Made by a program: the position numbers and the translations under genes
Part shown: positions 11,521-30,980 of the stretch, one piece after another
How positions within the stretch are numbered: position 1 is the first letter of the stretch
Layout: every line of letters begins with the position of its first letter
Notes under the pieces: generated by a model
The model's input: the letters and a program-made list of their open reading frames with translations, nothing else
Database searches by the model: none
What the model was told of the DNA's origin: nothing
DNA from: Clostridiaceae bacterium
GTDB lineage: Bacteria; Bacillota; Clostridia; Saccharofermentanales; DTU023
Direction of reading: 5' to 3'
DNA length: 64,000 nucleotides
NCBI GenBank assembly: GCA_012518845.1
Contig: JAAYRJ010000052.1
Coordinates: 14,381 to 78,380, forward strand

Positions 11521-11587
11521 TAACAATCCTTCCTTAATATTTTAATGATATGTTTGTTTTGTAGGGTAGCTAATAGAGATATATAAT

Positions 11588-12076: not shown

Positions 12077-13331
12077 TAAAATGTATTTCCTTAATCTTTT
12101 CTGCAAGTTGATCAGCTAAGTCATTTACAATAATAACTTCATTAGCTAAGTGTTGATAAATAGGATAGCGTTCTTGATATTTTTCTTCTAGATCTTCAAT
12201 TGAAGCAGTCAAAGGTCTGTCTTTTGTAGGTGTTAATTCTTCTAAAGCTCGGTCTAGAAAGTATATTTTAGAGTTTGCTTGTAAAGCCATCTGATTTTCT
12301 TTAGCTAGAATACTTCCACCTCCAGTTGCAATGATTTGACCTGATTGAGATGCAACTTCCTTAATAACTTCAGTTTCTTTTGCTCGAAAATATGCTTCTC
12401 CTTTTTTCTCGATGATTTTTGAAGGATGCATTTTTTCCTTTTCTTCAATCAAGTGATCAGTATCGATAAAAGAACGGTTTGTGATTTCAGCCAGCTTTAA
12501 ACCAACGGTGGTTTTGCCACTCGAGGGCATCCCGATTAAGACAATATTAGCCATTTGGGCTAAAAGCCTTTGATAAGCCTCGTCTTGTAGATCATTGGTT
12601 TTAAGATTAATTTTATTTTTTAGAAACAATTGTGAAGCATAATAAGCCTGCATAACTAGCATATAAAGTCCATTACAAGTTTTGATCCCTTTTTTTTCAG
12701 CTTCAAACATTAATTTAGTTTTTAATGGATTGTAAATTACGTCTACAACAGCTTCTAGATTTGAAAAAGAATCTAAAGATATGGGTGATTGATCGATATT
12801 TTCACCATACATACCAACAGGAGTGGTGTTGATGATCACTTGAATATCTTTTAGCTTCTCTGCCTCGGCGTAACTTATAGAATCGTCTGATTTAACTCGA
12901 CTAACTAAATAAACTTTTTTTGCTTTTAGTTTTTGGCATAAAACTTTTGCAGTCTTTGAAGTACCACCCGTACCAAGTATCAATACTTTTTTAGCTTCTA
13001 TTTCTATGTTGTTTTTCTCTAGTAGTGCGTTGAGACCTAATATGTCTGTATTGTAGCCAATTAATTTTTCGCCTGTTTTTACGATTGTGTTTATAGCCCC
13101 AATTTCTTTTGCTAAAGGATCAATCTCATCAAGGTAGGGTATCACCATTTCTTTATAGGGGATTGTGACATTAATTCCTTTAAAATTGGGCGTTCTAAAA
13201 AAATCTAACAGCTCTGATTTCTCTAATTGACAAAGCTGATAATCATAATCACCAAACATTTTATGTAAAACAGGTGAATAACTTTGTCCTAAGGGATTGC
13301 CAATAAGTCCATATTTAATTTTTTTTGACAT
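12063..13331 (-). CDS. aroE: Bifunctional shikimate dehydrogenase (N-terminal) / shikimate kinase (C-terminal)
   Basis: The N-terminal part has GLIGNPLGQSYSP, NVTIPYK, GYNTD and GTGGTSK. The C-terminal part has Walker A IGMPSSGKTTVG plus DTD and GGG motifs of AroK. It is one uninterrupted ORF. The ATG at 13331 follows GAGG; the ATG at 13343 is also possible. Confidence 0.88.
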   Translation of the reverse strand: MSKKIKYGLIGNPLGQSYSPVLHKMFGDYDYQLCQLEKSELLDFFRTPNFKGINVTIPYKEMVIPYLDEIDPLAKEIGAINTIVKTGEKLIGYNTDILGLNALLEKNNIEIEAKKVLILGTGGTSKTAKVLCQKLKAKKVYLVSRVKSDDSISYAEAEKLKDIQVIINTTPVGMYGENIDQSPISLDSFSNLEAVVDVIYNPLKTKLMFEAEKKGIKTCNGLYMLVMQAYYASQLFLKNKINLKTNDLQDEAYQRLLAQMANIVLIGMPSSGKTTVGLKLAEITNRSFIDTDHLIEEKEKMHPSKIIEKKGEAYFRAKETEVIKEVASQSGQIIATGGGSILAKENQMALQANSKIYFLDRALEELTPTKDRPLTASIEDLEEKYQERYPIYQHLANEVIIVNDLADQLAEKIKEIHFNDNI

Positions 13332-13358
13332 TTGTTGCCTCATAATTAATTTGTTGGT

Positions 13359-14477
13359 TTAATTTTTCAGATAATCAGTACCATATCTTAAAGCTAAAAA
13401 ATCGCAGATCACAAAAGCTGAGATAGAATTGACAACTTGTCTGATTCTATGAATTATTGCGGGATCATGTCTTCCCACTATTTCTAAATCTGTTGTCTCT
13501 AGAGTTTTGATATTTACAGTTTTTTGTTTTTGAGCAATTGAAGGAGTAGGTTTTATCACGGTAGAGAAAAGAATTGGCATACCGTTACTGATACCACCAT
13601 TAATACCTCCATTATTGTTAGAAGCAAACTTGATTTGGTCAATTCTATCAGCACTAGCGTCAATAGTAGGTGAATCATTTGCCTCACTTCCTTTGATTCT
13701 AGCAAATTGAAAGCCAGCTCCAAAAGCAATGGCTTTGACTGCTGGAATCGAAAATACAGCATGTGATAATAGACTTTCTATGCTATCGAAATAAGGTTCA
13801 CCTATACCTGCTTCAAGACCAAAGATAATGGTTTCTAAAATGCCACCGACACTGTCTTTTTGCGATTTTGCTTTTAAAATTTCAGCCTGCATTTTTTCGC
13901 CTTTAGCATCATCAATAACAGCAAATTGTTTGTTATTCAATTCTTCTAAAATATCTGCATGGTTTTCTTGCCCCAAAATAGTCTCGAAATCGCTATCAAC
14001 GATCCCAGCACATTCTTTAATATGTGATGCTATAATAATATTTTTTTCTTGCAAAACTTGTTCACAAATAGAACAGGCAGCAACTATTGCAGCAGTTACT
14101 CTACCAGAAAATTGCCCACCACCACGCCAATCCTGAAAGCCATGATATTTAGCATAGGCAGAATAATCAGCATGGCCAGGTCTTAAATACTCTTTTTGAT
14201 AATCTTTACTTCGCGTATTTTTATTAGGAATTATTATTGCTATTGGCGTACCAGTCGTCTTTCCTTCGAATACACCACTTAAGATTTGAAATTGATCTTT
14301 TTCTTTTCTTGATGTGGAAATCTGACCATGTGGTGCTCGCATAGCAAGTCTCATTTTGATAAAATCTTCGTCTATTTTTATTCCTGGTGCCATGCCTGTT
14401 AAAACAGCACCAATTGCTGGTCCATGACTTTCACCAAAAATTGTCAGATTAAGACTATTACCAAATGTGTTCTTCAT
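13359..14477 (-). CDS. aroC: Chorismate synthase
   Basis: FGESHGPAIG, RPGHADY and GRHDP motifs. Confidence 0.94.
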   Translation of the reverse strand: MKNTFGNSLNLTIFGESHGPAIGAVLTGMAPGIKIDEDFIKMRLAMRAPHGQISTSRKEKDQFQILSGVFEGKTTGTPIAIIIPNKNTRSKDYQKEYLRPGHADYSAYAKYHGFQDWRGGGQFSGRVTAAIVAACSICEQVLQEKNIIIASHIKECAGIVDSDFETILGQENHADILEELNNKQFAVIDDAKGEKMQAEILKAKSQKDSVGGILETIIFGLEAGIGEPYFDSIESLLSHAVFSIPAVKAIAFGAGFQFARIKGSEANDSPTIDASADRIDQIKFASNNNGGINGGISNGMPILFSTVIKPTPSIAQKQKTVNIKTLETTDLEIVGRHDPAIIHRIRQVVNSISAFVICDFLALRYGTDYLKN

Positions 14478-14487
14478 AATTTTTCTT

Positions 14488-15516
14488 TCAAATATTTTGT
14501 AATAAGGAAGCGATTTTTTGCTGAGATTCTTCTAATTTAGCTTTACATTCATCTAAGGTTAGATCTATTAACTGATACGAACCAATTTCTGGTACATAAA
14601 CAATTGTAATTTCATCACCACTCGTTTTTTTATCATGCAAGATAGCAGAAAAAATTTTATCTACACTTAAATTTGATTTAAGTGGTAAGTTAAATTGTTT
14701 TAAAATTTCAATTAATTTAGTTCGCACCTGATCTGAACAAAAATATAGCATACCCATGCCGATACATTCACCATGTAAATAATTACTTTGAACTTCAATT
14801 GCATGTCCAACTGTATGACCAAAGTTTAATACTTTACGCAAGTTTTTTTCTTTTACATCATTTTGGACAATATCTATTTTAATAGCCAAACTATCTGCAA
14901 TAATTTGCTTGATGTTTTCTTTCAAAGGATTATTTTTGATCAAATCAAATAAATTAGCATCAGAAGTAGCAGCCATTTTAATTGCTTCAACTAAGCCTGC
15001 GTTTGTCTCACGTCTTGATAAAGTTTCTAATACTAATGGATCAATAATAACTTTTTTAGGTTGATGAAAGGCACCGACTATATTTTTTAAATTGCAAAAG
15101 TCAATTGCAGTTTTACCGCCAACCGAAGAGTCAACTTGAGCCAAAAGGGTAGTTGGAATGTTATAAAAATCAATACCTCGCATATATGAAGCTGCTACAA
15201 AACCGGCTAAATCACCAACTACTCCACCACCTAGAGCAATGATGGCATCGCTTCTTGTAAATTGGTTTTTTACGAGTAATTTAAGTAGACTTTTATATTC
15301 AGCAAATGATTTGCTAGCTTCTCCTTGTTTAACAATTGCCAAGAAAACTGGATCACATTGTTGCATTACTTTATCCACGTACTGTTTTGGGATTCCATCA
15401 TCTGTGACCAACAATATTTTTCTTTTAACGTTTATGGCTTGATTAATGTTGGCTAAAGCATTATCTTCTAATAAAATTTCATAACTATCTTGAGCCAAAT
15501 TTACAGGAATTATCAT
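14488..15516 (-). CDS. aroB: 3-dehydroquinate synthase
   Basis: ALGGGVVGDLAGF, VDSSVGGKT and FGHTVGHAIE motifs. Confidence 0.93.
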   Translation of the reverse strand: MIIPVNLAQDSYEILLEDNALANINQAINVKRKILLVTDDGIPKQYVDKVMQQCDPVFLAIVKQGEASKSFAEYKSLLKLLVKNQFTRSDAIIALGGGVVGDLAGFVAASYMRGIDFYNIPTTLLAQVDSSVGGKTAIDFCNLKNIVGAFHQPKKVIIDPLVLETLSRRETNAGLVEAIKMAATSDANLFDLIKNNPLKENIKQIIADSLAIKIDIVQNDVKEKNLRKVLNFGHTVGHAIEVQSNYLHGECIGMGMLYFCSDQVRTKLIEILKQFNLPLKSNLSVDKIFSAILHDKKTSGDEITIVYVPEIGSYQLIDLTLDECKAKLEESQQKIASLLQNI

Positions 15517-15521
15517 TGTTT

Positions 15522-16634
15522 TTACTTTCTATATTCAACAAATGAGCCTACTACTTTGATATTGCGACAAGTCAATTGTAAGGCTTCTAACATTTCTTGA
15601 CCTTCATTGGAGTAGACATTGCCTTCTGATTCGGCATAAAAATAATATTGCCAGAGCAAATCTTTTTGTGGTCTGCTTCTTAAAGTTCTTAAGTTAAACC
15701 CATGTGCACCGATAATATTTAAAGCTCTGCCTAAGGAACCAGCTTCATTAGCAACAGTGAACATTAATGAAAAGTTCAACTCGGCATCTTTTTGCGTTGC
15801 TATATTTTGAGAAGCAGAAACAACTGCAAAGCGAGTAGTATTTGTTTTTCTTGTATTTATTCCAGAGGCAATAATCTCTAAACCAAATAAATTTGCACTA
15901 TCATCACTGGCAATTGCTGCGAGACTAGGATCGTTTTGCTCTGCCACATATTTCGCAGCAAAGGCGGTGTTTTCTGAATTTAATGTTTTTAAATTGTATT
16001 TATCAATAAATTCTGCACATTGACTCAATGCTTGAGGATGACTCATTACAGTTTTGATATCTGCTAATTTAGCACCAGGAACAGCAAGTAAATCATGTCC
16101 AATTTCTAATGAATAGGTGGCGTTAATAAATAAATTTCCAGAAAATAATAAATCGGCTACTTGTCCAACTTCTCCGGTTGAGCTATTTTCTAATGGTAAA
16201 ATAACAGCTTCACATTCGCCATTTTCTACTGCTTCATAAGCTAATCTAAAGTTTGGGTAGGAAACTTTTTTTGCAACAGGGAATAAATGATCAGCAGCAA
16301 TATAGGCAAAAGCACCTTCGGTTCCACAATACGCGACTCTCATACCTTCAAACAATAAAGTTTGGTAATTGCGTGAAATTCGCATAGTCTGTCTTAGAAA
16401 ATCTGCATAATAGCCTTGAAAATCAGAATGATTAAGCCAGGCGATATTCTCTTTTAAGACATAATCCTCACGTTTAGCATCTTTTACAGGTAGTCCGTGT
16501 GCTTGTTTATATTCTGCAATATCTTTAGATATCAACATTCTTTTTTCAAAAAGTTTAGCCATCTCACGATCAATTTTATTTATTTCTTGACGACTTTCTT
16601 TGATATCTTTTATATTCGTAATATCTTTTTTCAT
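15522..16634 (-). CDS. pheA: Chorismate mutase / prephenate dehydratase (P-protein) with a C-terminal ACT domain
   Basis: An N-terminal AroQ-class CM helix region (REEINKIDREMAKLFEKRM) is followed by a PDT domain (VAYCGTEGAF..., TRF) and an ACT-like tail (GSLGRALNI, ESEG). Confidence 0.88.
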   Translation of the reverse strand: MKKDITNIKDIKESRQEINKIDREMAKLFEKRMLISKDIAEYKQAHGLPVKDAKREDYVLKENIAWLNHSDFQGYYADFLRQTMRISRNYQTLLFEGMRVAYCGTEGAFAYIAADHLFPVAKKVSYPNFRLAYEAVENGECEAVILPLENSSTGEVGQVADLLFSGNLFINATYSLEIGHDLLAVPGAKLADIKTVMSHPQALSQCAEFIDKYNLKTLNSENTAFAAKYVAEQNDPSLAAIASDDSANLFGLEIIASGINTRKTNTTRFAVVSASQNIATQKDAELNFSLMFTVANEAGSLGRALNIIGAHGFNLRTLRSRPQKDLLWQYYFYAESEGNVYSNEGQEMLEALQLTCRNIKVVGSFVEYRK

Positions 16635-16736
16635 GATTCTCTCTTCTCTAATTTTATTTATTCCATACGACTTTTTTTAAACTTTAGATAAATTAATAAA
16701 GTATAATGAATAATTATACTTATTTTAGCGTAAAAA

Positions 16737-17936
16737 TTAAGTAATTTCAGATAATTGATAATAATTAGCTAATTTTGTAAAGGAATCTAGAGATTTCTCA
16801 ATTTGATCTGTTGAAACACAATAGCCAATTCTTACAAAACCTGGATGGCCAAAGCTATTACTGGGAACAAAATATAATTCAAAATCTCTTGCTTTTTCAC
16901 AAAATTCTTCTGCATCAGCAATAGGTGACTCCATGAACAAATAAAAAGCACCATCCGGATATACACAATTAAAGCCAATTTTAATCAAATGTTCATATAA
17001 TAAATTACGATTTTTTTCATAAATTGAAAAATCTGAAGTTAAGCCAATACAATCTTCAATCACCCTTTGAAACATTGATGATGCACAGACATAACCTAAA
17101 GCTCTGCCAGCTCCACAAATGGTTTTATAGACCATATCTGCATTTTTTGCTTTTGTTGAAACTAAAATATAACCAATTCTTTCGCCAGCTAAAGATAAAG
17201 ATTTGCTAAATGAATAAATTACAATAGAATTTTTATAATAATGTGTTACAAAGGGGACATCTTTACCATAGCTAATCTCACGATATGGCTCATCACTAAC
17301 CAAGAAGATCGGATGTCCATATTCATTTTCTTTTTTCTTCAATAGTTCAGCTAATTTTTGAATAGTTTTTTCAGAGTAAATTACACCGGTCGGATTATTA
17401 GGCGAATTGATTAAAACGATTTTTGTTTTAGGATTAATTGCTTTTTCTAGAAGATCAAAGTCAGGTAAGAAATTCTCTGGCTGGGTTTTTAGAGCTATTA
17501 ACTTTGCATTTGTGCTTTCAACAAAAACTTTATAATCTGGAAAAAATGGGGCAAAGGTAATTACTTCATCATCTTCATTTAAAAAAGCTTTAAAAGTAAT
17601 AGCTAGTGCTGCAGCAGCACCAGATGTAATATAAATTAGATCACTTTTGGCATCGCAAGAAAAAGTTTTATTCAAATAATTAGCAATGGCCTTTTTGGTC
17701 GTGGGGGCACCTGGACCGCTGGTATAGCCATGTAATTTCTCTGGAGGTATAGTATTTACTAATTCCTTAATCTTTTCTGTTACTTGTTTGTGAGTCGGTA
17801 TATTAGGATTGCCAATACTAAAGTCAAAAACATTTTCATCACCAATTTGTTGTTTTCTTTTTAAACCATATTCAAAAATTTCACGAATTACTGAGCTTTC
17901 TTGCCCGTATCCTAACATTCTCTTTGATAAAAACAT
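16737..17936 (-). CDS. Class I PLP-dependent aminotransferase (aspartate/aromatic type), first gene of the aromatic cluster
   Basis: SPNNPTG and SFSKSLSLAGERIGY (PLP-lysine motif). Specificity is inferred only from its position ahead of pheA. Confidence 0.8.
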   Translation of the reverse strand: MFLSKRMLGYGQESSVIREIFEYGLKRKQQIGDENVFDFSIGNPNIPTHKQVTEKIKELVNTIPPEKLHGYTSGPGAPTTKKAIANYLNKTFSCDAKSDLIYITSGAAAALAITFKAFLNEDDEVITFAPFFPDYKVFVESTNAKLIALKTQPENFLPDFDLLEKAINPKTKIVLINSPNNPTGVIYSEKTIQKLAELLKKKENEYGHPIFLVSDEPYREISYGKDVPFVTHYYKNSIVIYSFSKSLSLAGERIGYILVSTKAKNADMVYKTICGAGRALGYVCASSMFQRVIEDCIGLTSDFSIYEKNRNLLYEHLIKIGFNCVYPDGAFYLFMESPIADAEEFCEKARDFELYFVPSNSFGHPGFVRIGYCVSTDQIEKSLDSFTKLANYYQLSEIT

Positions 17937-18023: not shown

Positions 18024-18689
18024 ATGATCGATGCCGTAATTTTTGATTTGGATGGAACTATTTTAGATTCAATGCCAATGTGGAATAATTTTGGTAGAAA
18101 ATATTTAAAATCATTGGGAATTAAGGCAAGAAAAGGAATAGATGATGATCTTTTCACTTTGACACCAGAACAATCTGCTGAATACTTTATCTCTGAATAT
18201 GGTGTAAAAAAGACAGTTTCAGAAATGTTAGAAGAAATGAAAGCTATTTCTTACGGCTATTATCAAAATGAAGTAGAAATAAAAGCTGGTATCAGAGAGT
18301 TTCTTCAAGTACTATCAGAACAAGAAATTCCATTAGGTGTGGCCACTGTAACTAATCAAGCTTCAACTCGGGCAGGATTAACCCGAAACAATTTAATACA
18401 ATATTTTTCTACAATAATGACAGTAGATGATGTTGGTATAGGAAAGGAAAACCCTGCCGTTTTTTTAGAGGCAGCCAGATTACTGAAGGCGGATCCTCAA
18501 AAAAGTATTGTGGTAGAAGATGCACTACACGCAGTTAAAACAGCAAAATCAGCTGATTTTATAACAGTTGGTATCTATGATGAGGGTAATGAAAGTTTTC
18601 AAGCAGAGTTAAAAAATGCTTGTGATTTATATCTTAAAGACTATTCAAATCCCCGCGAAATTTTTGAATTATTAACTAGATTGTTTTAA
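18024..18689 (+). CDS. HAD-IA family hydrolase (beta-phosphoglucomutase/phosphatase-like)
   Basis: DAVIFDLDGTILDS motif I, a T/S motif and a VVEDA motif IV-like element. Confidence 0.8.
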   Translation: MIDAVIFDLDGTILDSMPMWNNFGRKYLKSLGIKARKGIDDDLFTLTPEQSAEYFISEYGVKKTVSEMLEEMKAISYGYYQNEVEIKAGIREFLQVLSEQEIPLGVATVTNQASTRAGLTRNNLIQYFSTIMTVDDVGIGKENPAVFLEAARLLKADPQKSIVVEDALHAVKTAKSADFITVGIYDEGNESFQAELKNACDLYLKDYSNPREIFELLTRLF

Positions 18690-21867: not shown

Positions 21868-22680
21868 ATGTCTAATCAAGTAATTTTAGAAAAATTTAAT
21901 TTGGCGATTGAGTATATGACTTTGCTTGCTGAGTATAACTATAAATTAATCGATCTTAATATGATTGAACCTTTTCGAATTGAGGACAAAGAATTTCAAC
22001 CTAGTAGTCTTGTATTTGAGAGAAATGAAACTATGTATGCTATTCGAAGTGACTGGACAAGGTCACTGTTAAATTATAATGATAGTTATTTTCTTGATGA
22101 TCGTATGTTTTGTTATTTTGGAACTGTTATTCGTGATTATCAATCTTTTTATCAGGCGGGTGTTGAACTTTACGAACCAAGCGAAGTAGAAATGCTAAAA
22201 AGTATTCAAATTCATTTAGACTTTGTTAAAAATAAAATAAGAAATCAAGGTAAAAATATAACGGCTTTAATTCTAAATAATGATCGATTTATTGATTTGT
22301 TTATTGAAAAATATGATTTGTCGGAAAGTATTCGTACTTTGATTTATGAAAAAAATCTGAGTGAATTAAAAAATCAGCTTGAGCCTGATAATCCTCTCTT
22401 AAAAATTCTACAAGCAAGAGTTAGCGAGCAGTATACTTTGCTAGCGAGCGAATTTTCGAATACAGAAGAATTGCAAACTATTGAAAAAATCAAAAAAATA
22501 GCAGATCAAGAAAATCTTAAGTTTATGATAGACTTGTCGTTTAAATCACCTCAGGGCTATTACAATGGTTTATATTTTCAGGCTTTCATAAATTATCATA
22601 CCCCAATTTTAAGTGGTGGTGAGTACGATAATCGGGCTTTTGGTATTGCCCTCAATATTGAAGATGGAGGACTTTTATGA
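21868..22680 (+). CDS. hisZ: ATP phosphoribosyltransferase regulatory subunit (short HisZ)
   Basis: HisRS-like motifs (IRSDWTRS, YQAGVELY, GGEYDN). It is translationally coupled to the short-form hisG. The ATG at 21868 follows GGAG. Confidence 0.75.
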   Translation: MSNQVILEKFNLAIEYMTLLAEYNYKLIDLNMIEPFRIEDKEFQPSSLVFERNETMYAIRSDWTRSLLNYNDSYFLDDRMFCYFGTVIRDYQSFYQAGVELYEPSEVEMLKSIQIHLDFVKNKIRNQGKNITALILNNDRFIDLFIEKYDLSESIRTLIYEKNLSELKNQLEPDNPLLKILQARVSEQYTLLASEFSNTEELQTIEKIKKIADQENLKFMIDLSFKSPQGYYNGLYFQAFINYHTPILSGGEYDNRAFGIALNIEDGGLL

Positions 22681-23282
22681 TTACTGTTGCCTTGCCTAAA
22701 GGTAGATTATTAAAAGAAGTTATTGCATATTTAGAGTCCTGTGACCTAAAAAAATATGCAGATAAACTTGATCCAAAATCACGACTACTCTTTACGGATG
22801 TTGATGGAATCCGTTTTGTTTATGCTAAAGGCAGAGATGTGCCTACCTATGTTGAATCAGGAATAGCCGATTTAGGTTTTATTGGTTCTGACATTATTAC
22901 TGAAAACAAATTTGAATTGTTAAATGTGTCGCAACTGCCATTTGGCTATTGTCGTTTTTCATTATGTGGTTTACCAGGTGTTAAGCAATTTAAGAGTGTA
23001 GCCACAAGCTTTTACAATATTTCTTTTCAATATTTTAAAAAGAAAAAACAGCAAGTTTCATTTATCCATTTACACGGCTCGGTTGAGCTTGCACCTTTAT
23101 TAGGTTTAGCAGACGGAATCGTCGATATTGTCCAAACAGGTAGCACTTTAAAAGCAAATGGTTTGATTGAGTATGAAACGATTATGGATGTCCAGGCTTG
23201 TTTAATTGCTAATAGGCAAACATTTTATACAAAAGAAGCTGAAGTTTATCCTTTTTTGAAAAAGTTAGGAGTTTTTGAATAA
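22677..23282 (+). CDS. hisG: ATP phosphoribosyltransferase, short form
   Basis: ITVALPKGRL N-terminus and DIVQTGSTLKANGL motif. At 201 aa it is the HisZ-dependent type. Confidence 0.92.
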   Translation: MITVALPKGRLLKEVIAYLESCDLKKYADKLDPKSRLLFTDVDGIRFVYAKGRDVPTYVESGIADLGFIGSDIITENKFELLNVSQLPFGYCRFSLCGLPGVKQFKSVATSFYNISFQYFKKKKQQVSFIHLHGSVELAPLLGLADGIVDIVQTGSTLKANGLIEYETIMDVQACLIANRQTFYTKEAEVYPFLKKLGVFE

Positions 23283-24541
23283 TGAAATTAGAGTTACCTG
23301 AAATTCAGGCTGCTAGAGAATATCTTGCTCAGTTTTCCCAAGTTAAAGAAGCCGAAGATCAAGAATCTTTAAGCCAAGTAATGGATATTCTGCAAAATGT
23401 TCGCAAGTATGGTGATAACGCTTTATTTGAATATACAGAGAAATTTGATGGTCAGAAATTAGAGAAGTTTAAAGTTCCAGAAACGTGGCTCGAGCAAAGT
23501 TATCTTGCACTGGAGCCAGAGTTGCGTCAAGCATTGGAATTTATTAAGCAGCGAATTCAAAAGTACGAAGAACAAATAAAATATAAAGACAAAGAATTAA
23601 CTGAATTTAAATATGTCTATCATCCGATTGAAAAAGTAGGTTTCTATGTCCCAGGCGGCACAGCTTTATATCCATCATCTGTACTTATGAGTATTATTGC
23701 TGCTCAGGTAGCCGGCGTGCCCAAGATCTATGCAGTTACACCAACTTTTGAAGAAAATAATATTACATTTGCAACTCTTTATATTTGCGGCGTGACGAAT
23801 GTTTATCAAATAGGTGGAGCTCAAGCAATTGCAGCTTTAGCCTATGGCACCGAGAGCATTCCTAAAGTCGATAAAATTGTAGGCCCAGGAAATCGTTATG
23901 TAGCTTTAGCAAAACGATTAGTCTTTGGTGAAGTTGGAATTGATTCTATAGCTGGACCTAGTGAAATTTTGCTTTATATTGATGAAAATGTTGATCCAGA
24001 ATCAATTACATTAGATATTTTTGCTCAAGCAGAACATGATCCAGATGCTAAAACTTTTTTATTAGCAGAAAATAAAAAGATTTTGAAAGATATACATGCT
24101 TTGATTGTGAAAAAACTGCCTGAGCAAAAACGTAGTGATATTATTACTCAGTCAATTAATAATAATCATTATTCCATTATTGGTGAAGCAAAAGATTTAA
24201 TTGCTATTATTAATCAGATAGCACCAGAGCATGTTTCGATCCAACATGCAAATTCAGACGAAATAATTTCAAAAATCCATTATGCTGGTGCAATTTTTAA
24301 GGGCAATTACTCGCCAGAGGCCATAGGCGATTATGTGGCAGGACCATCCCATGTCTTACCAACAAGTGGTAGTGCCAGATTTAGTCATGGTCTTAATGTA
24401 AATGATTTTTTGACTAGTCATGCAATTATAGATATTGAACCTGAAACTTATCAGCAAATTGCTCCGTATGGGATCAAAGTCGCATATGCGGAAGGACTTT
24501 ACGCACATGCCGAAAGTTTAGAGGCAAGATTAAAAGAATAA
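23282..24541 (+). CDS. hisD: Histidinol dehydrogenase
   Basis: IAGPSEIL, QAEHD and PEHV motifs. Confidence 0.94.
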   Translation: MKLELPEIQAAREYLAQFSQVKEAEDQESLSQVMDILQNVRKYGDNALFEYTEKFDGQKLEKFKVPETWLEQSYLALEPELRQALEFIKQRIQKYEEQIKYKDKELTEFKYVYHPIEKVGFYVPGGTALYPSSVLMSIIAAQVAGVPKIYAVTPTFEENNITFATLYICGVTNVYQIGGAQAIAALAYGTESIPKVDKIVGPGNRYVALAKRLVFGEVGIDSIAGPSEILLYIDENVDPESITLDIFAQAEHDPDAKTFLLAENKKILKDIHALIVKKLPEQKRSDIITQSINNNHYSIIGEAKDLIAIINQIAPEHVSIQHANSDEIISKIHYAGAIFKGNYSPEAIGDYVAGPSHVLPTSGSARFSHGLNVNDFLTSHAIIDIEPETYQQIAPYGIKVAYAEGLYAHAESLEARLKE

Positions 24542-24582
24542 TATTTTATTGAATAAAATACCTAGTGAAAGAGAAGAACAAT

Positions 24583-25572
24583 ATGATAATCATGAATCGT
24601 AATACCAGTCCCATCAAGCCTTTGACAGATGAACAAATTTTTAATGCTGTGAAAAAAACAAATTATAATCAATATCCAGATCAGGAACGAATAAATTTTA
24701 TTAATTTATATGCCGATTATTTTGGCTTTAATCCAGACAATATAGAAGTAGCTAATGGCTCTGATGAATGGATTCAAAAATTGATTATAACGCTTGGTAA
24801 AAACGGGGTAATGTCTTTAAATCCCGATTTTGTGATGTATCAAATCTATACAGAACAATTTTTGCCAGAAATTTATTTTGTTAATGCTGAGCCTGATTTT
24901 ACCTTTGATTTTGATAAAGTAATTGTTGCCATCAAAGCTAAAAAACCTTCATTATTTTTAATATCTAATCCACAAAATCCAACCGGTACGATGTTTAGTA
25001 CCCAAGATTTGCAACGTTTAGCTGATGCTATGGCAGAGGTTGATGGTTATCTTGGCTTAGACGAGTGTTATATTGATTTTGCTAAAGATTACGAACGACC
25101 AAAGGGAAAAAATATTATTATTCTCAGAACTTTAAGTAAAGTTTATGGGATGGCAGGCTTGCGTGTAGGGATGGCAATTGCGGAAAAAGAAACTTTGGAT
25201 ATAATCACTCAAATAAATCATCCTTACCCTTTAAATTCACTAGCGTTAAATTTAGCCAGTGAATTGTTTTCGGATAAAAAAGCTTTACAAAAATTCAAAA
25301 ATTATCAATTTGAGAGTAAAGCTAGATTAGAGACAGCCTTAGATCAAGTTTCAGATTTAATGGAAATAAAAGAATCTTATACTAATTATATTTTTACTTA
25401 TGGTGATGCTGCAATAGATATGGCAAACTTTTTATTGGATAAAGGATTTTTGAGTCGCATCTATGATGTACCGATCTTACAAAATGCAGCTCGTTATTCA
25501 ATTATCAAATTAGAAGAATATCAAGCATTAAATGAGGCAATTATAGAATGGAGAAATCAGTATGTTGAGTAG
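24583..25572 (+). CDS. hisC: Histidinol-phosphate aminotransferase
   Basis: SNPQNPTG and LSKVYGMAGLRVG motifs. The start is uncertain (GTG 24565, ATG 24583 or ATG 24592). Confidence 0.88.
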   Translation: MIIMNRNTSPIKPLTDEQIFNAVKKTNYNQYPDQERINFINLYADYFGFNPDNIEVANGSDEWIQKLIITLGKNGVMSLNPDFVMYQIYTEQFLPEIYFVNAEPDFTFDFDKVIVAIKAKKPSLFLISNPQNPTGTMFSTQDLQRLADAMAEVDGYLGLDECYIDFAKDYERPKGKNIIILRTLSKVYGMAGLRVGMAIAEKETLDIITQINHPYPLNSLALNLASELFSDKKALQKFKNYQFESKARLETALDQVSDLMEIKESYTNYIFTYGDAAIDMANFLLDKGFLSRIYDVPILQNAARYSIIKLEEYQALNEAIIEWRNQYVE

Positions 25573-26143
25573 GAAAAGAGAAACGCTAGAAACTAAAATC
25601 GAATTGAAATTAGCCGAGCAAACAGATACAAATGAAAGATCGGAAATAGATACAGGTATAGGTTTTTTTGATCATATGCTTACTTTGTTGGCATTTCACT
25701 CCAATTTATTTTTATCGGTTAAGGCTGATGGTGATTTAGAAGTAGATTTTCACCATACAGTTGAAGATACTGGTATTGTTCTTGGTGAATTAATTTATGA
25801 GCTATATCAAAGCAAAAAGTCTTTTGGACGTTATGGTTTTTTCTACTTGCCGATGGATGAATCTTTAGCAAGAGTCACACTTGATTTATCTGGACGACCA
25901 GGTTTTTATTTTAACTGTAATTTTGCTAGTGAAAAAGTTGGAGAGTTTGATACGGAACTTGTTAAAGAGTTCTTCAATGCGGTGGCAATGAATGCGAAAA
26001 TGACTTTGCATATTGATTTGTTAAAAGGTGGAAATAGCCATCATGAAATTGAAGCTGTCTTTAAGGCATTTGGTCGTAGCCTGGCTATTGCCTTAGAAAC
26101 CAAAACAGGTGGAGTGCCATCTTCCAAAGGGGTGATTGCATGA
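25562..26143 (+). CDS. hisB: Imidazoleglycerol-phosphate dehydratase
   Basis: GIGFFDHML, HHTVEDTGI and GGNSHHEIEA motifs. Monofunctional (193 aa). Confidence 0.94.
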   Translation: MLSRKRETLETKIELKLAEQTDTNERSEIDTGIGFFDHMLTLLAFHSNLFLSVKADGDLEVDFHHTVEDTGIVLGELIYELYQSKKSFGRYGFFYLPMDESLARVTLDLSGRPGFYFNCNFASEKVGEFDTELVKEFFNAVAMNAKMTLHIDLLKGGNSHHEIEAVFKAFGRSLAIALETKTGGVPSSKGVIA

Positions 26144-26847
26144 TTGATATTATTCCAGCAATAGATTTAATCGAAGGTCAAAGTGTTAGATTAGAACAAG
26201 GCGATTATCAAACAAAATCCTTAATGCCAAGAACAGCTAAAGAAGCGATAAAATTTTACAATCAATTTGAACAAGTTAAAGGGATTCATATTATTGATCT
26301 TCTAGCAGCTAAGGAAAAAAAGGCAAAAGAGATGGATTTGATTTCAGAACTTAGGGCTTTGACAGATTTGCCAATACAAATTGGTGGTGGTTTGAGAAAT
26401 GAAGAAACAATTCGGTTTTACGATAGTAAAGGCATTGACTACTTTATTTTAGGTACAAAAGCAATAACAGATTTTGCTTGGCTAGAAGAGATGACAAACT
26501 TATTTCCAGCCCGAATTATAGTTGGCATTGATGCTAGAGACGATTATATTTATATAAATGGCTGGACAGAGAATTCCGGTATTCAAATTCCAGATCATTT
26601 AGCAAAAATTGAAAAACTTAATTTGCAAGGAATTATTTATACAGATATCGCTAAAGATGGGATGAATAAAGGTCCCAATTTTGAAAAAACTGCCGCCTTA
26701 GCTAAAAATACAAGACATAAAGTAATTGCTAGCGGTGGAGTACGTGATAATTCAGATTTGAAAAAGTTAGCAGCACTTGAAATACCAGCGGCAATTGTTG
26801 GTAAAGCAGCTAACACAGATGCTTTTTGGCAATCAATTGTTGATTAG
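26140..26847 (+). CDS. hisA: ProFAR isomerase
   Basis: IIPAIDL, QIGGGLR and ASGGV motifs. Its ATG overlaps the hisB stop (ATGA), leaving no room for hisH. Confidence 0.92.
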   Translation: MIDIIPAIDLIEGQSVRLEQGDYQTKSLMPRTAKEAIKFYNQFEQVKGIHIIDLLAAKEKKAKEMDLISELRALTDLPIQIGGGLRNEETIRFYDSKGIDYFILGTKAITDFAWLEEMTNLFPARIIVGIDARDDYIYINGWTENSGIQIPDHLAKIEKLNLQGIIYTDIAKDGMNKGPNFEKTAALAKNTRHKVIASGGVRDNSDLKKLAALEIPAAIVGKAANTDAFWQSIVD

Positions 26848-26856
26848 AGGGCAGAC

Positions 26857-27624
26857 ATGATAGAGAAAACAAGAAAAATTCTTCCTTGTCTTGATATAAG
26901 AAATGGGAAAGTAGTTAAAGGTGTAAATTTTGAAAATATTAGAGAAATGGGCGATCCAGTCGAGTTGGCAACCAAATATGGAGCGGCAGGAGCTGATGCC
27001 CTAGCTTTTTTAGATATAACAAAAACTAAAGAGAAGCATGGATTTTATCTAGATCTAATTTCTGAAATTACAAGCAACATTGAGATTCCGCTATTTGTGG
27101 GTGGAGGTATTAGCACGCTTAAAGATATTAATTTAATATTAAATGCTGGTGCCAGCAAAGTTAGTATTGCTTCTGCAGCTCTAACAAATCCTAACTTTAT
27201 CTCAGATGCAGCTTCTGAATTTGGACACGACAAAATAATTATTGCATTAGATGTTGCCCAAGATTTAGCTGACAATAAATATTATGCTTATACTCATGGA
27301 GGTCAGAAAAAAACAGATTTTGAAGTGTTTGAACTAATTGAAAAATTTGACCAAATTGGAGTGTCAGCATTTTTGATTACGGGAATTTCATTTGATGGCT
27401 CAAAATCTGGCTTTGACCTTGCTTTTTTTAAAGAAGCAGGAAAAAGAACAAATACAACTTTAATCGCAAGTGGTGGTGCTGGAAAAATTGAAGATTTCGT
27501 TGATTTATTTCAAAAAACAAATGTTGAATATAGTTTAGCAGCTTCTATTTTTCATCAAAACACAGTAAATATTAGAGAGCTAAAACAAAATTTAGCTTCG
27601 AAAAACATTAATGTTAATCTGTAA
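26857..27624 (+). CDS. hisF: Imidazole glycerol phosphate synthase cyclase subunit
   Basis: ILPCLDIRNGKVVKG, VGGGI and ASGGAG motifs. The catalytic Asp equivalents (D13, D132) are present. Confidence 0.93.
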   Translation: MIEKTRKILPCLDIRNGKVVKGVNFENIREMGDPVELATKYGAAGADALAFLDITKTKEKHGFYLDLISEITSNIEIPLFVGGGISTLKDINLILNAGASKVSIASAALTNPNFISDAASEFGHDKIIIALDVAQDLADNKYYAYTHGGQKKTDFEVFELIEKFDQIGVSAFLITGISFDGSKSGFDLAFFKEAGKRTNTTLIASGGAGKIEDFVDLFQKTNVEYSLAASIFHQNTVNIRELKQNLASKNINVNL

Positions 27625-27679
27625 TTTCTCTCTAGAAAAAAGCAAAATTTCCAAACTAATTAAAAGCGAAAGGATTATT

Positions 27680-28303
27680 ATGCAACCTGATTTTACAAAA
27701 AATAATGGCTTGTTATCTGTTATTTTACAGGACTTTGATACAAAACAAGTTTTAATGAATGGCTTTATGAATGAAGAAGCCTATAAATTAACCAAACAAG
27801 AAAATGTTGTTTGGTTTTATTCTAGATCAAAACAACGTCTTTGGAAAAAAGGGGAATCAAGTGGCCATGTTCAACATGTTGTAGAAATGACACTTGATTG
27901 TGATCAAGATGCCCTTCTAATTCAAGTTGTTCCGGCTGGACCAACTTGCCATCTTGGCAATACCAGTTGTTTTGATGATCCTTATTTTAATCTGGAAATT
28001 CTAGAAAAAACTATTCAAGATCGCATAAAAAATCCTAAAGAGGGTTCCTATACAAAATATTTGTTGGAACAAGGTTTAGATAAAATTTTGAAAAAAAGCA
28101 GTGAAGAAATGACCGAAACTATAATCGCTAGTAAAAATCAGGATAAAAATGAGATAATAGCAGAAGCATCGGATTTACTTTACCATGTAATTTTATTGTT
28201 AAATTCTCAAAAAATTTCTTTGAATGATGTCAAAGAAAATTTAGCAAAAAGACATGGCAAGGTACAGTCTTACAAGCGTCGAAAAGAAATTACAAATTGG
28301 TAA
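27680..28303 (+). CDS. hisI: Bifunctional PR-AMP cyclohydrolase / PR-ATP pyrophosphatase
   Basis: WFYSRSKQRLWKKGESSGH and DCDQDALL (HisI part), and a C-terminal HisE helix bundle (EASDLLYHVILLL). The ATG at 27680 follows AAAGGA. Confidence 0.9.
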   Translation: MQPDFTKNNGLLSVILQDFDTKQVLMNGFMNEEAYKLTKQENVVWFYSRSKQRLWKKGESSGHVQHVVEMTLDCDQDALLIQVVPAGPTCHLGNTSCFDDPYFNLEILEKTIQDRIKNPKEGSYTKYLLEQGLDKILKKSSEEMTETIIASKNQDKNEIIAEASDLLYHVILLLNSQKISLNDVKENLAKRHGKVQSYKRRKEITNW

Positions 28304-28428: not shown

Positions 28429-29091
28429 TTGAAAGCGAGAATTTTGGTGAACAATCAAAGTTTATTCATAAGTGTCTTAAATCGAGGTAAAGCTGAGGAA
28501 TTCTTGAATGAGATGCGTATTTTTGATCTGACAGGTGGCATTGTCATGTTAGGCGAAGGAACAGCGACTAATCGGCTATTACAAATTCTTGGCTTAGCAG
28601 AAACTCAAAAAGAAATAATCATTCTTCCCATTTTTGATTCCAAGTTTGAAGATCCAATCCATGAGATGATGTTACATCATTTTCAAGTGGATAAAAGAAG
28701 AAAAGGAATTGCATTTTCAATTCCAATAAGTTATTTAGGTGCAGAAAGTGTATTACCAAAAGATAAAATGTATGACCCAGCCTGCTTTTTTTCTCAATGT
28801 ATTTTTGCTGTTGTTGATGAAGGTCAAGGTCAGCAGGTAATGAAACATGTTCAAGCAACCGGACAAACGGGTGGCACAATCATTCATGCGCGTGGTGCAG
28901 GAGTTCCAAGTGATTCTTACTTTCCTTTCAAAATAGAACCTCAAAAGGATATAGTCATGATTTTAGTAAAAACAGAGCGAGTAAAAACAGTCCAAAATTA
29001 CTTGAACGAAAAAATGAATTTTTCTGATCCAAGAAAAGGTATTATTTTTACCTTGCCAGTATCTAGAGTGACAGGTATCTTTCAAGGTTAG
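28429..29091 (+). CDS. Tandem PII-like (two P-II fold modules) protein
   Basis: Two copies of the pattern hhhxVVxxGxxxxVhxxhxxxGxxGGTIhxxxG ... GIxFxhPh: SLFISVLNRGKAEE...GIAFSIPIS and CIFAVVDEGQGQQ...GIIFTLPVS. The start is uncertain (TTG 28429, or GTG 28447). Confidence 0.65.
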   Translation: MKARILVNNQSLFISVLNRGKAEEFLNEMRIFDLTGGIVMLGEGTATNRLLQILGLAETQKEIIILPIFDSKFEDPIHEMMLHHFQVDKRRKGIAFSIPISYLGAESVLPKDKMYDPACFFSQCIFAVVDEGQGQQVMKHVQATGQTGGTIIHARGAGVPSDSYFPFKIEPQKDIVMILVKTERVKTVQNYLNEKMNFSDPRKGIIFTLPVSRVTGIFQG

Positions 29092-29099
29092 GGGTTAAA

Positions 29100-30980
29100 A
29101 TGAATTTATTACAATCCAAAACGAAAGAAGTAGCGCAATCTATTTTACCTATAGTTATTTTTGTAGGGATATTATCAATGGCTTTTGTTCGGGTAGACTT
29201 TCCCGTCGTCCAAAGATTTTTTATCGCTTCAATTTTAGTCTTTTTAGGTTTATCTATTTTTCTTTGGGGCATTGATCAAAGTATGGAACCAATTGGTTAC
29301 CATATGGCACATGAAATAGCTACGTCTAAAAGCCTAGGTAAAACCGTTATTTTGAGCTTTTTACTAGGGTTTTTGATCACAATTGCAGAACCAGATATTT
29401 TGATTTTAGCAAATCAGGTTGAAAGTGCTTCTGGAGGTACTCTAGCTGCAGATTTTTTAGTCCGAATGATTTCAGTTGGAGTTGGTGTGATGATTTCCAT
29501 TGCCTCTATTAGACTATTATCTGGTTTTAAATATAATGTTATGATGACCATAGTCTATATCATTATCTTTATACTTGGTCTAAAAGTATCTGAAGAATTT
29601 TTGGCTATCTCAGTTGATGCCTCTGGTGCAACTACTGGTGCTTTAACTACACCCTTTGTGCTTGCAATTTCTGTAGGCCTATCAAGAATTAAAGGTGGAA
29701 AATCATCCGAAGAAGATTCTTTTGGGATGGTTGGTGCAATGAGTGCAGGTCCAATCCTTGCAGTCATGTTAATTTCTATTATCTCTGGGCAAACTAATAT
29801 TCATGGACAGGCAGAACCTTTTATTTTGTCAGATCAAGTTTTTGCTCCATTTATTGCAGACTTTAAAGTGACTTTTGTGGACTCAATATTTGCTTTATTA
29901 CCAATCACAGCCTTGTTTTTTATCTTTAATGCTTTCAAGTTTAAAGTTAGTCGTTCAGAGCTGATTCGAATAATTCGTGGTTTAGTATATACATTATTAG
30001 GTTTAACTTTGTTCTTAGTTGGTGCCCATACTGGTTTTATGGATATGGGGCGTGTGCTTGGAGCTAGTCTTGCTGATTCATATCTTCCCTATATGCCTTT
30101 CATAGGCTTATTGCTTGGAATGTTTGTTGTTTTAGCCGAACCGGCAGTTCATGTTTTAGGGGAGCAGGTAGAAGATGTCACAGCTGGTAATATCAAAGAC
30201 AGTGTTTTGAGGACGACTTTGTCAATGGGGGTGGGTGTAGCCATTGCCTTATCTATGATAAAAATTATGGTTCCTGAAGTCAGACTTTGGTATTTTCTTT
30301 TACCAGGCTTTGCAATCTCTATCATTCTTTCTTATTTCGTTGATCCTGTTTTTGTTGGGATTGCATTTGATGCCGGTGGTGTTGCATCTGGTCCTATGGC
30401 AGCAACATTTGTCATGGCGTTTGCTCAGGGTGCAGCAGATAGTGTGCCAACTGCCGATGTTCTTAAAGATGGCTTTGGAGTTATTGCCATGATCGCAATG
30501 ACGCCAGTATTAAGTGTTATGGTTTTAGGCTCAATTAATAAGATTCAAATGATTCGCACCCAAAAAGTTAAGGATGAAGTCGATCATTCTGAAATCTTTG
30601 AGGTATGTACGATCGATAAAGATTCCGATCAAAAACTCCATGATTTAATTTTTTGTGTAATTGATCGTGGTTTTACAGAAGAAGTGATTGATCTTGCTCG
30701 TTCAGTAGGAGCAAGAGGTGCAACCATTTTACATGGACGTGATGCTAGGACAGGTACTTGGCTTAGTTCCTCTTTGAATATAGAGAAAGAAAAAGAAATT
30801 ATTTGGTTAATTGTTGATGGCGATTTAACTAGAAAAGTCAGCAAAACTTTATTGGAAGCCTCAGAAGAAGAAGACAGCCATATTGTATCAATCTTTTCAT
30901 TGCCTATTACTGATGTAAAAGGTATACCAACCGAAAACTTAAAAACAAATAATGAAAATGTAGACATAATCGTCCAATAA
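29100..30980 (+). CDS. Fused double DUF1538 membrane domain with a C-terminal PII-like domain
   Basis: There is an internal duplication: LGLSIFLWG...FLITIAEPDILILANQVE versus LGLTLFLVG...FVVLAEPAVHVLGEQVE. The C-terminal module is LIFCVIDRGFTEEVIDLARSVGARGATILHGRD...IVSIFSLPI. Confidence 0.65.
   Translation: MNLLQSKTKEVAQSILPIVIFVGILSMAFVRVDFPVVQRFFIASILVFLGLSIFLWGIDQSMEPIGYHMAHEIATSKSLGKTVILSFLLGFLITIAEPDILILANQVESASGGTLAADFLVRMISVGVGVMISIASIRLLSGFKYNVMMTIVYIIIFILGLKVSEEFLAISVDASGATTGALTTPFVLAISVGLSRIKGGKSSEEDSFGMVGAMSAGPILAVMLISIISGQTNIHGQAEPFILSDQVFAPFIADFKVTFVDSIFALLPITALFFIFNAFKFKVSRSELIRIIRGLVYTLLGLTLFLVGAHTGFMDMGRVLGASLADSYLPYMPFIGLLLGMFVVLAEPAVHVLGEQVEDVTAGNIKDSVLRTTLSMGVGVAIALSMIKIMVPEVRLWYFLLPGFAISIILSYFVDPVFVGIAFDAGGVASGPMAATFVMAFAQGAADSVPTADVLKDGFGVIAMIAMTPVLSVMVLGSINKIQMIRTQKVKDEVDHSEIFEVCTIDKDSDQKLHDLIFCVIDRGFTEEVIDLARSVGARGATILHGRDARTGTWLSSSLNIEKEKEIIWLIVDGDLTRKVSKTLLEASEEEDSHIVSIFSLPITDVKGIPTENLKTNNENVDIIVQ

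What the first reader, a model, noticed from the sequence alone, without database searches (positions are those of the whole stretch)
26100..27624. his operon lacks hisH, and HisF has lost HisH-interface and gate acidic residues
The order hisZ-G-D-C-B-A-F-IE is complete except for hisH, which normally sits between hisB and hisA. The hisB stop and hisA start overlap (ATGA at 26140-26143), so there is no remnant.

I aligned by eye to Thermotoga maritima HisF, whose sequence I recalled from memory.
- Catalytic D11 and D130 are kept (D13, D132).
- Gate residue E46 is Ala48 (GCC, 26998-27000).
- E167 is Ala171.
- D98, the residue that salt-bridges HisH and activates its glutaminase, is Ser100.
- K99 is kept (K101), and the R5-region basic residues are retained.

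This pattern is what one would expect for a cyclase that no longer docks a glutaminase.
Basis: partly seen in the sequence, partly recalled or inferred. Interest (0 to 1): 0.65.

Follow-up and report, generated by a model that had tools for sequence, protein, structure and literature searches.

The report
Histidine operon without its glutaminase subunit
This biogas-reactor bacterium keeps a complete, selected histidine pathway but has lost hisH, and its HisF has let the HisH-docking surface decay, which points to an enzyme that runs on free ammonia, a pattern that recurs in several unrelated bacterial lineages.

Summary
Window 21868-28303 encodes hisZ-G-D-C-B-A-F-IE, and hisB and hisA overlap in ATGA (26140-26143), so hisH has left no remnant. 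Alignment to the solved T. maritima HisF gives R5>K7, E46>A48, D98>S100, Q123>D125, E167>A171 and R249>N254. Catalytic D13/D132, K21 and the phosphate-binding motifs are intact.

Five further species of the same biogas/digester clade have the identical hisH-less operon. All eight his genes there are under purifying selection (dN/dS 0.02-0.18).

All 47 comparison HisFs with an adjacent hisH, and all 16 with hisF away from the other his genes, keep R5, E46, D98, Q123, E167 and R249. Operons without hisH in other lineages (Lederbergia/Bacillus, an Oscillospiraceae MAG, an Epulopiscium MAG and others) lose the same residues. Six HisFs picked only for such substitutions all lacked hisH.

In the window HisF, 8 of 13 otherwise invariant interface positions are changed, against 12 of 66 others (p=0.003).

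Best explanation: a stand-alone HisF that uses free ammonia in an ammonia-rich habitat. Absence of hisH from the rest of the genome could not be tested. I found no paper describing natural hisH-less operons.

The parts
21868..22680 (+). hisZ, regulatory subunit of ATP phosphoribosyltransferase (the mechanical ORF starts at TTG 21811)
   Evidence: NCBIfam PRK12294 E=7e-34. Gene call 5012-5824 in L001, where window coordinate = L001 + 16856.
22677..23282 (+). hisG, short-form ATP phosphoribosyltransferase
   Evidence: TIGR00070 173.6 bits, cutoff 75.75.
23282..24541 (+). hisD, histidinol dehydrogenase
   Evidence: TIGR00069 456.9 bits, cutoff 243.8.
24565..25572 (+). hisC, histidinol-phosphate aminotransferase (the gene caller starts it at 24583)
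   Evidence: TIGR01141 202.4 bits, best family but below its cutoff. Gene call.
25562..26143 (+). hisB, monofunctional imidazoleglycerol-phosphate dehydratase
   Evidence: NF002107 267.3 bits, cutoff 267.
26140..26143 (+). ATGA overlap of the hisB stop and hisA start, at the place where hisH normally sits; no remnant of hisH
   Evidence: Sequence read. No HisH similarity in the hisB-hisA junctions of the hisH-less loci tested; the only hits (in L003 and L017) are 6-9 residue chance matches at E>1.
26140..26847 (+). hisA, ProFAR isomerase
   Evidence: PRK13587 286.6 bits and TIGR00007 226 bits.
26857..27624 (+). [quoted passage not shown] The catalytic core is intact and the HisH interface, gate and channel are degenerate. 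Kept: D13, K21, K101, D132, D180. Changed: K7 (R5), A48 (E46), F80 (T78), S100 (D98), A105 (N103), D125 (Q123), A171 (E167), N254 (R249).
   Evidence: TIGR00735 265.9 bits, below the cutoff of 294.55. PDB alignment. Codons. Model pLDDT 94.4 and TM 0.91-0.92 to HisF structures. Enrichment test.
27680..28303 (+). hisIE, bifunctional PR-AMP cyclohydrolase / PR-ATP pyrophosphatase (the mechanical ORF starts at 27611)
   Evidence: NF002747 262.8 bits, cutoff 187. Gene call.

Best explanation
The clade that includes this organism lost hisH by a clean deletion between hisB and hisA. It now makes imidazole glycerol phosphate with HisF alone, using free NH3 in place of glutamine-derived NH3.

Shown:
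- hisH is missing from the operon in six species of the clade.
- The other eight his genes are intact and under purifying selection.
- The HisF catalytic and phosphate-binding residues are unchanged.
- The residues that dock HisH (D98, Q123, R249, G166, P197), form the ammonia gate (R5, E46, E167) and line the channel (T78) are no longer conserved and differ from species to species.

Inferred:
- No HisH partner exists anywhere in the genome.
- NH3 reaches PRFAR from solvent. It could enter through the now uncovered and ungated barrel mouth. Alternatively, since F80 and I128 may fill the channel, it could enter directly at the catalytic face.
- The ammonia-rich, mildly alkaline biogas-reactor habitat supplies enough NH3 to make the glutaminase dispensable.
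For: - Operon without hisH in the window and in L010, L011, L012, L013 and L006, recovered from independent assemblies and samples.
- dN/dS is 0.02-0.18 for all eight his genes, and 0.07-0.14 for hisF.
- Forty-five conserved columns, including D11, K19, D130, D176, GGG80-82, SGG201-203 and A224/S225, are unchanged in every hisH-less lineage examined.
- All 47 HisFs with adjacent hisH and all 16 with hisF away from the other his genes keep R5/E46/D98/Q123/E167/R249.
- Independent hisH-less operons lose the same residues: D98 in 7 of 7 lineages (three of the seven were picked for a D98 substitution), Q123 in 6, R249 in 5, R5 in 4, E167 in 3.
- An NJ tree places the window clade, the Lederbergia group and L052 apart, each next to relatives that have hisH.
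- Six of six HisFs chosen by residue alone lacked hisH; the D98E control had it.
- Interface enrichment p=0.0027. Within-clade polymorphism at the interface p=0.0008.
- HisF alone catalyses the reaction with ammonium salts at basic pH in vitro (PMC11350729).
- K. pneumoniae hisH mutants are rescued by high NH4+ (PMC5919458).
- A C. glutamicum hisH deletion is prototrophic (PMC3896937).
- The clade comes from biogas fermenter and anaerobic digester metagenomes.
- The window also encodes NH4+-dependent DAP dehydrogenase.
Against: - Absence of hisH from the whole genome was not tested. These are MAGs, and only about 64 kb (the window) and 20 kb per relative were seen.
- Three clade members (L011, L012, L013) still keep D98 and E167, and L011 also keeps R249. 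Loss of the interface is therefore incomplete, so selection on part of that surface cannot be ruled out.
- P0011 and P0063 lack hisH in the operon with nearly canonical interfaces. Leaving the operon therefore does not by itself prove loss of the partner.
- E. coli and Salmonella hisH mutants are auxotrophic in ordinary ammonium medium (PMC3896937), so NH3-only function needs high NH3 or an improved enzyme. Neither was measured here.
- No in situ ammonia or pH data for the source samples were retrieved.
Confidence: 0.7

Rival explanations
1. hisH has only moved elsewhere in the genome, and a normal HisF-HisH heterodimer still forms, perhaps through a co-evolved interface.
For: The whole genome could not be searched. 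his genes are dispersed in many bacteria, as in the 16 loci where hisF lies away from the other his genes. L011 keeps D98, E46, E167 and R249. P0063 and P0011 lack hisH in the operon but have near-canonical interfaces.
Against: All 16 hisF genes that lie away from the other his genes keep the six key residues. The window HisF changes 8 of 13 invariant interface positions. These include D98, which forms the conserved salt bridge to HisH K181, and R249, the cation-pi hinge partner of HisH W123. Replacements differ between sister species (D98: S/S/D/D/D/A; R249: N/N/R/N/Q/K). That is the pattern of drift, not of a new conserved interface.
Confidence: 0.13
2. A different protein delivers ammonia to HisF. 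Candidates are a shared TrpG/PabA-type glutaminase, or the P-II-like protein and DUF1538 cation transporter encoded directly downstream.
For: The P-II-like and DUF1538 pair follows hisIE in every clade member, with no predicted terminator between them. Three of the four fixed, clade-specific changes in HisF lie at the catalytic face: A54K, N103A and S172G; the fourth is K4R.
Against: The synteny extends well beyond this pair (EamA, aspartate kinase, threonine genes), so it is not specific. Of the other hisH-less lineages, only the Epulopiscium locus was inspected downstream of hisIE, and it does not carry the pair. The only characterised DUF1538 member is a Na+(Li+,K+)/H+ antiporter (PMC5484666). 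The variable interface argues against any conserved docking partner.
Confidence: 0.07
3. The operon is a decaying remnant, the organism is a histidine auxotroph, and the HisF changes are ordinary pseudogenisation.
For: Two Lederbergia species (L016, L019) have also lost hisA, leaving a remnant with an in-frame stop.
Against: All eight genes are intact in six clade species that have diverged to 56-76% amino-acid identity from the window, with dN/dS 0.02-0.18. The catalytic residues are invariant. Even Lederbergia hisF has dN/dS 0.03-0.10.
Confidence: 0.03
4. An assembly or binning artefact removed hisH.
For: The window comes from a metagenome-assembled genome.
Against: The same junction is found in at least 10 contigs from independent samples and assemblers, and in cultured Lederbergia isolates.
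Confidence: 0.01

Closest known systems
Canonical bacterial imidazole glycerol phosphate synthase, the HisF-HisH heterodimer (T. maritima, PDB 1GPW, 2WJZ, 7AC8)
   Same: Same HisF fold (TM 0.91-0.92), the same catalytic D11/D130/K19 and phosphate-binding sites, and the same position in the his operon.
   Different: There is no hisH gene in the operon. The gate acids E46 and E167, the HisH contacts D98, Q123 and R249, and the channel residue T78 are replaced.
HisH-independent, NH4+-dependent activity of HisF seen in vitro and in hisH mutants (E. coli and T. maritima HisF in vitro; K. pneumoniae hisH mutants on high NH4+; C. glutamicum hisH deletion)
   Same: It is the proposed chemistry: PRFAR plus NH3 gives ImGP plus AICAR, catalysed by HisF alone (PMC11350729, PMC5919458, PMC3896937).
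   Different: Those are laboratory conditions or engineered mutants of organisms that keep hisH and a canonical interface. Here the glutaminase is naturally missing and the interface has decayed across a whole clade.
HisF paralogues WbuZ and AglZ/HisF2, which act in sugar amidation
   Same: HisF-like barrels. The window HisF also matches these models, at 208 and 169 bits.
   Different: Both scores are below the match to hisF proper (265.9 bits). The gene sits between hisA and hisIE in a his operon, not in a glycan cluster.
Ammonia-dependent versions of other amidotransferase reactions (NH3-dependent NAD+ synthetase NadE, AsnA versus AsnB, TrpE alone with NH3). Cited from general knowledge.
   Same: The same evolutionary logic: the synthase works with free ammonia when the glutaminase module is absent.
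   Different: Different enzyme families. For ImGP synthase, I found no paper describing a natural glutaminase-free form.

Membership tests
HisF (imidazole glycerol phosphate synthase, cyclase subunit; TIGR00735 / PF00977) | Sequence match to the family model | tested here: inconclusive
   TIGR00735 is the best hit (E=3e-79, 265.9 bits) but falls below the curated cutoff of 294.55. hisZ, hisC and hisA of the same operon also score below their cutoffs, so this is lineage-wide divergence.
HisF (imidazole glycerol phosphate synthase, cyclase subunit; TIGR00735 / PF00977) | (beta-alpha)8 barrel superposable on solved HisF structures | tested here: met
   Model pLDDT 94.4. Foldseek TM 0.91-0.93 to 4EVZ, 1GPW_A, 1THF and 1H5Y.
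HisF (imidazole glycerol phosphate synthase, cyclase subunit; TIGR00735 / PF00977) | Catalytic D11 and D130, loop-1 K19, and the two phosphate-binding sites | tested here: met
   D13, D132 and K21 are present, together with GGG82-84, D180-G181, SGG205-207 and A229-S230.
HisF (imidazole glycerol phosphate synthase, cyclase subunit; TIGR00735 / PF00977) | Genomic context within histidine biosynthesis, next to hisA and hisIE | tested here: met
HisF (imidazole glycerol phosphate synthase, cyclase subunit; TIGR00735 / PF00977) | Cyclase activity converting PRFAR to ImGP and AICAR | not testable with these tools
   Needs an enzyme assay or complementation.
Heterodimeric, glutamine-dependent HisF-HisH ImGP synthase | A hisH gene (class I glutamine amidotransferase) in the operon or genome | tested here: not met
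   No hisH in the operon or anywhere in the 64 kb window. No PF00117 domain in the 41 window ORFs scanned against Pfam-A. The rest of the genome could not be searched.
Heterodimeric, glutamine-dependent HisF-HisH ImGP synthase | HisF D98, salt bridge to HisH K181, needed for glutaminase activation | tested here: not met
   S100. The role of D98 is described in PMC8115485 and bioRxiv 10.1101/565457.
Heterodimeric, glutamine-dependent HisF-HisH ImGP synthase | The gate quartet R5, E46, K99, E167 at the channel entrance | tested here: not met
   K7, A48, K101, A171: both acidic members are lost.
Heterodimeric, glutamine-dependent HisF-HisH ImGP synthase | R249, hinge partner of HisH W123, and Q123 at the interface | tested here: not met
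   N254 and D125. Roles are given in PMC9032424.

The most novel reading that the evidence does not exclude
Stand-alone HisF enzymes may be a recurrent, naturally evolved class of monomeric, ammonia-dependent ImGP synthase. On this reading they arose independently in at least four or five bacterial lineages in NH3-rich or alkaline niches. In the window clade the enzyme would also be re-engineered: the barrel channel filled (T78>F/I, V126>I), and three of the four fixed, clade-specific changes placed at the catalytic face (A54K, N103A, S172G), so that NH3 enters from the active-site side.

These lineages would then act as a natural knockout. They would separate residues conserved for catalysis from residues conserved only for HisH docking, gating and allostery. 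N103 is one such candidate.
Probability: 0.4. Interest if true: 0.75.

Novelty: new variant of a known kind. Interest (0 to 1): 0.62.

Why it matters
HisF-HisH is a textbook model for ammonia channelling and long-range allostery. Glutamine dependence in vivo has been taken as the rule. The 2014 C. glutamicum review states that no other IGP synthase is known to work without the amidotransferase in vivo (PMC3896937).

Natural lineages that discarded HisH would show three things:
- The NH3-only route is physiologically sufficient in some habitats.
- There are living examples of the simpler ancestral pathway that Lazcano and Miller proposed (cited in PMC5919458).
- There is an evolutionary read-out of which conserved HisF residues exist only for the partnership: D98, Q123, R249, R5, E167 and, unexpectedly, N103.

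It also matters for metabolic reconstruction of MAGs. A missing hisH should not automatically be scored as histidine auxotrophy or as genome incompleteness.

Tried and rejected
- Remnant of hisH in the hisB-hisA junctions. tblastn at E<=10 on 17 junctions gave only 6-9 residue chance hits.
- hisH elsewhere in the window. Nothing was found. Pfam scans of 41 ORFs found only the GATase modules of PurF (class II). The PurL GATase_5 module appears in the precomputed annotation. No PF00117 domain was found.
- Whole-genome search for hisH. This was not possible.
- T-box or another leader RNA upstream of hisZ. Rfam gave no hit in the window at gathering thresholds.
- A terminator between hisIE and the P-II-like gene. 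None was predicted. This is uninformative, because the scan is at background level.
- A link between DUF1538 and ammonium. The literature gives only a Na+(Li+,K+)/H+ antiporter, so this was rejected as evidence.
- Lederbergia HisF as sister to the window clade, implying one shared loss or horizontal transfer. Rejected. The NJ tree without the interface columns puts Lederbergia next to Sediminibacillus, which has hisH, and far from the window clade.
- D98 as a perfect marker. It is not. D98N, D98S and D98A occur only without hisH in this sample. D98E occurs with hisH. Some hisH-less operons keep D98.
- Prior descriptions of natural hisH-less operons. Literature searches found none. The library is limited to open-access papers and bioRxiv.
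Full report
**What is there.** The window is low-GC DNA (about 33%). The HisF protein is identical to one from a MAG that NCBI labels "Clostridiaceae bacterium", found in biogas-fermenter metagenomes. Positions 21868-28303 on the + strand encode hisZ, hisG, hisD, hisC, hisB, hisA, hisF and hisIE, each identified by NCBIfam. hisB ends and hisA begins in the tetranucleotide ATGA at 26140-26143. This is where Firmicute and Bacteroidota operons carry hisH (47 comparison loci), and no space or remnant is left for it. tblastn with two HisH queries found nothing in the 64 kb window, although the same queries found hisH at E 1e-33 to 1e-54 in the comparison loci. Pfam scans of 41 window ORFs found no class I glutamine amidotransferase domain.

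**The residue claims.** The alignment has no gaps near the sites. I also checked each codon.
- Kept: D11=D13, K19=K21, K99=K101, D130=D132, D176=D180.
- R5 corresponds to K7, with R6 before it.

An AlphaFold model (pLDDT 94.4) matches solved HisF structures at TM 0.91-0.93.

**Is it more than chance?** I took the 37 HisF interface residues from an independent source, the PDBePISA analysis of 1GPW in PMC9032424 Table S1. I defined "conserved" as at least 95% identical among 48 HisFs with an adjacent hisH. In the window HisF, 8 of 13 conserved interface positions are changed, against 12 of 66 conserved non-interface positions (Fisher one-sided p=0.0027). Forty-five conserved columns, including all catalytic and phosphate-binding residues, are unchanged in every hisH-less sequence examined.

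**The clade.** Protein and genome searches found a distinct HisF clade at 56-71% identity to the window, after which identity drops to 50% or less. It includes "Mageeibacillus sp. UBA5436", three "Clostridiaceae bacterium" MAGs (AS08sgBPME_347, AS23ysBPME_19, AS21ysBPME_111), and GCA_036789255.1. Every sequenced locus has the same hisZ-G-D-C-B-A-F-IE operon without hisH. Those with a stated source come from biogas or anaerobic-digester metagenomes. All eight genes have dN/dS of 0.02-0.18. hisF is at 0.07-0.14, among the higher values in every pair. The pathway has therefore been maintained for a long time after hisH was lost, which rules out a decaying operon and an assembly artefact.

**The pattern recurs.** The same scan brought in other his operons without hisH.
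- Ten Lederbergia/Bacillus genomes, including cultured isolates: G-D-(C)-B-A-F-IE.
- An Oscillospiraceae MAG (L052), where hisB and hisA again overlap.

In all 47 loci with adjacent hisH, and in all 16 loci where hisF lies away from the other his genes, R5, E46, D98, Q123, E167 and R249 are invariant. The hisH-less operons lose them.

I then reversed the test. From the protein hit list I picked HisFs only because they carried substitutions at these positions (P0119, P0077, P0011, P0015, P0028, P0063). All six lack hisH between hisB and hisA. A D98E control, a substitution known to be compatible with HisH and even hyperactive (PMC8115485), has hisH.

Across seven hisH-less lineages the most recurrently changed conserved positions are D98 (7), Q123 (6), R249 (5), N103 (5), R5 (4) and E167 (3). 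Three of those lineages were ascertained through a D98 substitution, so the D98 count is partly built in. Mean recurrence is higher for interface than for non-interface positions (p=0.003). An NJ tree built without the interface columns places the window clade, Lederbergia and L052 apart, each beside hisH-bearing relatives. These are independent events. P0015/16 and P0028 may share the window clade's loss.

**Drift or a new interface?** Within the window clade, 10 of 13 otherwise invariant interface positions are polymorphic among eight members. For example, D98 is S/S/D/D/D/A and R249 is N/N/R/N/Q/K/E. Only 17 of 66 other positions are polymorphic (p=0.0008). This is what relaxed selection looks like. 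A conserved alternative partner would not give this pattern.

The clade-wide fixed differences are few: K4R, A54K, N103A and S172G. The last three sit at the C-terminal ends of strands 2, 4 and 6, on the catalytic face of the barrel.

The channel residue T78, listed among the conserved allosteric or channel residues in bioRxiv 10.1101/565457, is F, N, I, V or T in this clade. V126 becomes I and V48 becomes A in most clade members, including the window. The barrel interior may therefore have been repacked. This is inference only.

**Mechanism.** HisF alone converts PRFAR using ammonium salts at basic pH in vitro (PMC11350729). K. pneumoniae hisH mutants are rescued by high NH4+ (PMC5919458). 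A C. glutamicum hisH deletion grows normally, and the authors of that review noted that no other such case was known in vivo (PMC3896937).

The simplest reading is that this clade's HisF works as a stand-alone, NH3-dependent synthase. Anaerobic digesters are ammonia-rich and mildly alkaline (general knowledge; not measured for these samples). The window also encodes meso-DAP dehydrogenase (TIGR01921, 364.8 bits), the route to diaminopimelate that needs higher ammonium than the succinylase route (PMC6382763). That is consistent but weak support. PurF and PurL in the same window keep their glutaminase modules, so the organism has not given up glutamine amide transfer in general.

**What remains open.**
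- I could not search whole genomes, so a relocated hisH is not excluded. I give it about 13%.
- Some clade members keep D98 and E167, and one of them also keeps R249. Two Bacteroidota-type hisH-less operons (P0011, P0063) have nearly canonical interfaces. Departure of hisH from the operon and decay of the interface are therefore not strictly simultaneous.
- N103 co-varies with hisH loss although it is not an interface residue. I have no tested explanation for this. It could be part of the allosteric or NH3 hand-over path.
- The P-II-like gene and the fused UmpA/UmpB-like DUF1538 gene directly after hisIE are syntenic throughout the clade. The synteny extends far beyond them, and the family's only characterised member is a cation/H+ antiporter. 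I do not count them as part of the system.

**Novelty and score.** Searches of the open-access library found no description of natural hisH-less his operons or of HisF interface decay. The chemistry has been known for decades, so this is a new variant of a known kind, not a new kind of system. It is of real interest to people who use HisF-HisH as a model for channelling and allostery, and to those reconstructing amino-acid prototrophy from MAGs. Interest 0.62. Confidence in the stand-alone NH3-dependent explanation 0.7.

Noticed in passing
window 60226-61194 (+): This ORF is meso-diaminopimelate dehydrogenase (TIGR01921, 364.8 bits, cutoff 180.6). It is the one-step, NH4+-consuming route to DAP, which needs higher ammonium than the succinylase route (PMC6382763). 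That fits an ammonia-rich lifestyle.
   Followed up: partly
window 28447-29091 and 29100-30980 (+): A P-II-like protein and a 626-aa fused UmpA/UmpB-like DUF1538 membrane protein follow hisIE directly, with no predicted terminator between them. The pair is syntenic in all clade members. It is absent downstream of hisIE in the one other hisH-less lineage inspected there (the Epulopiscium locus). Its function here is unknown.
   Followed up: partly
window 27169-27171 (HisF A105, equivalent to T. maritima N103): N103 is invariant in all 63 HisFs that have an adjacent hisH or lie away from the other his genes, and it is outside the PISA interface. It is nevertheless replaced in 5 of 7 hisH-less lineages (A, G, T or S). 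It may be conserved only for communication with HisH or for handing over NH3.
   Followed up: partly
L016 9760-10010 and L019 9800-10010 (Lederbergia wuyishanensis, L. panacisoli): In these two cultured species hisA is reduced to a C-terminal remnant with an in-frame stop between hisB and hisF. hisF is nonetheless under strong purifying selection (dN/dS about 0.05).
   Followed up: partly
window 18024-18689 (+): This HAD-family hydrolase lies next to the his operon in the relatives L003 and L006. It is a candidate for the histidinol-phosphate phosphatase that the operon lacks. NCBIfam gives only generic beta-phosphoglucomutase-family matches.
   Followed up: partly
L052 8677-9977 (Oscillospiraceae MAG Emb289P1bin128): This is an independent hisH-less operon in which hisB and hisA again overlap by 4 nt. 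Its HisF carries R5K, D98S, Q123D, R249T, N103T and T171N. From memory, the isolate name suggests the alkaline P1 gut section of a termite. I did not verify this.
   Followed up: no
window 273-17936 and 31075-61194: The window is a dense biosynthetic island. It holds purCEFMND, the shikimate/Phe/Tyr genes, purL, threonine genes, two Opp-type peptide ABC transporters and lysine genes. No Rfam family, and so no T-box, was detected anywhere at gathering thresholds.
   Followed up: partly
L090 3402-9439 (Epulopiscium sp. MAG, same biogas study as the window): A second, unrelated organism from the same biogas-fermenter samples also has a hisH-less operon (hisZ-G-D-B-A-F-IE). Its HisF carries D98N, Q123E, R249K and N103G. 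The protein is indexed in 118 blocks of the collection (24 contigs read).
   Followed up: partly
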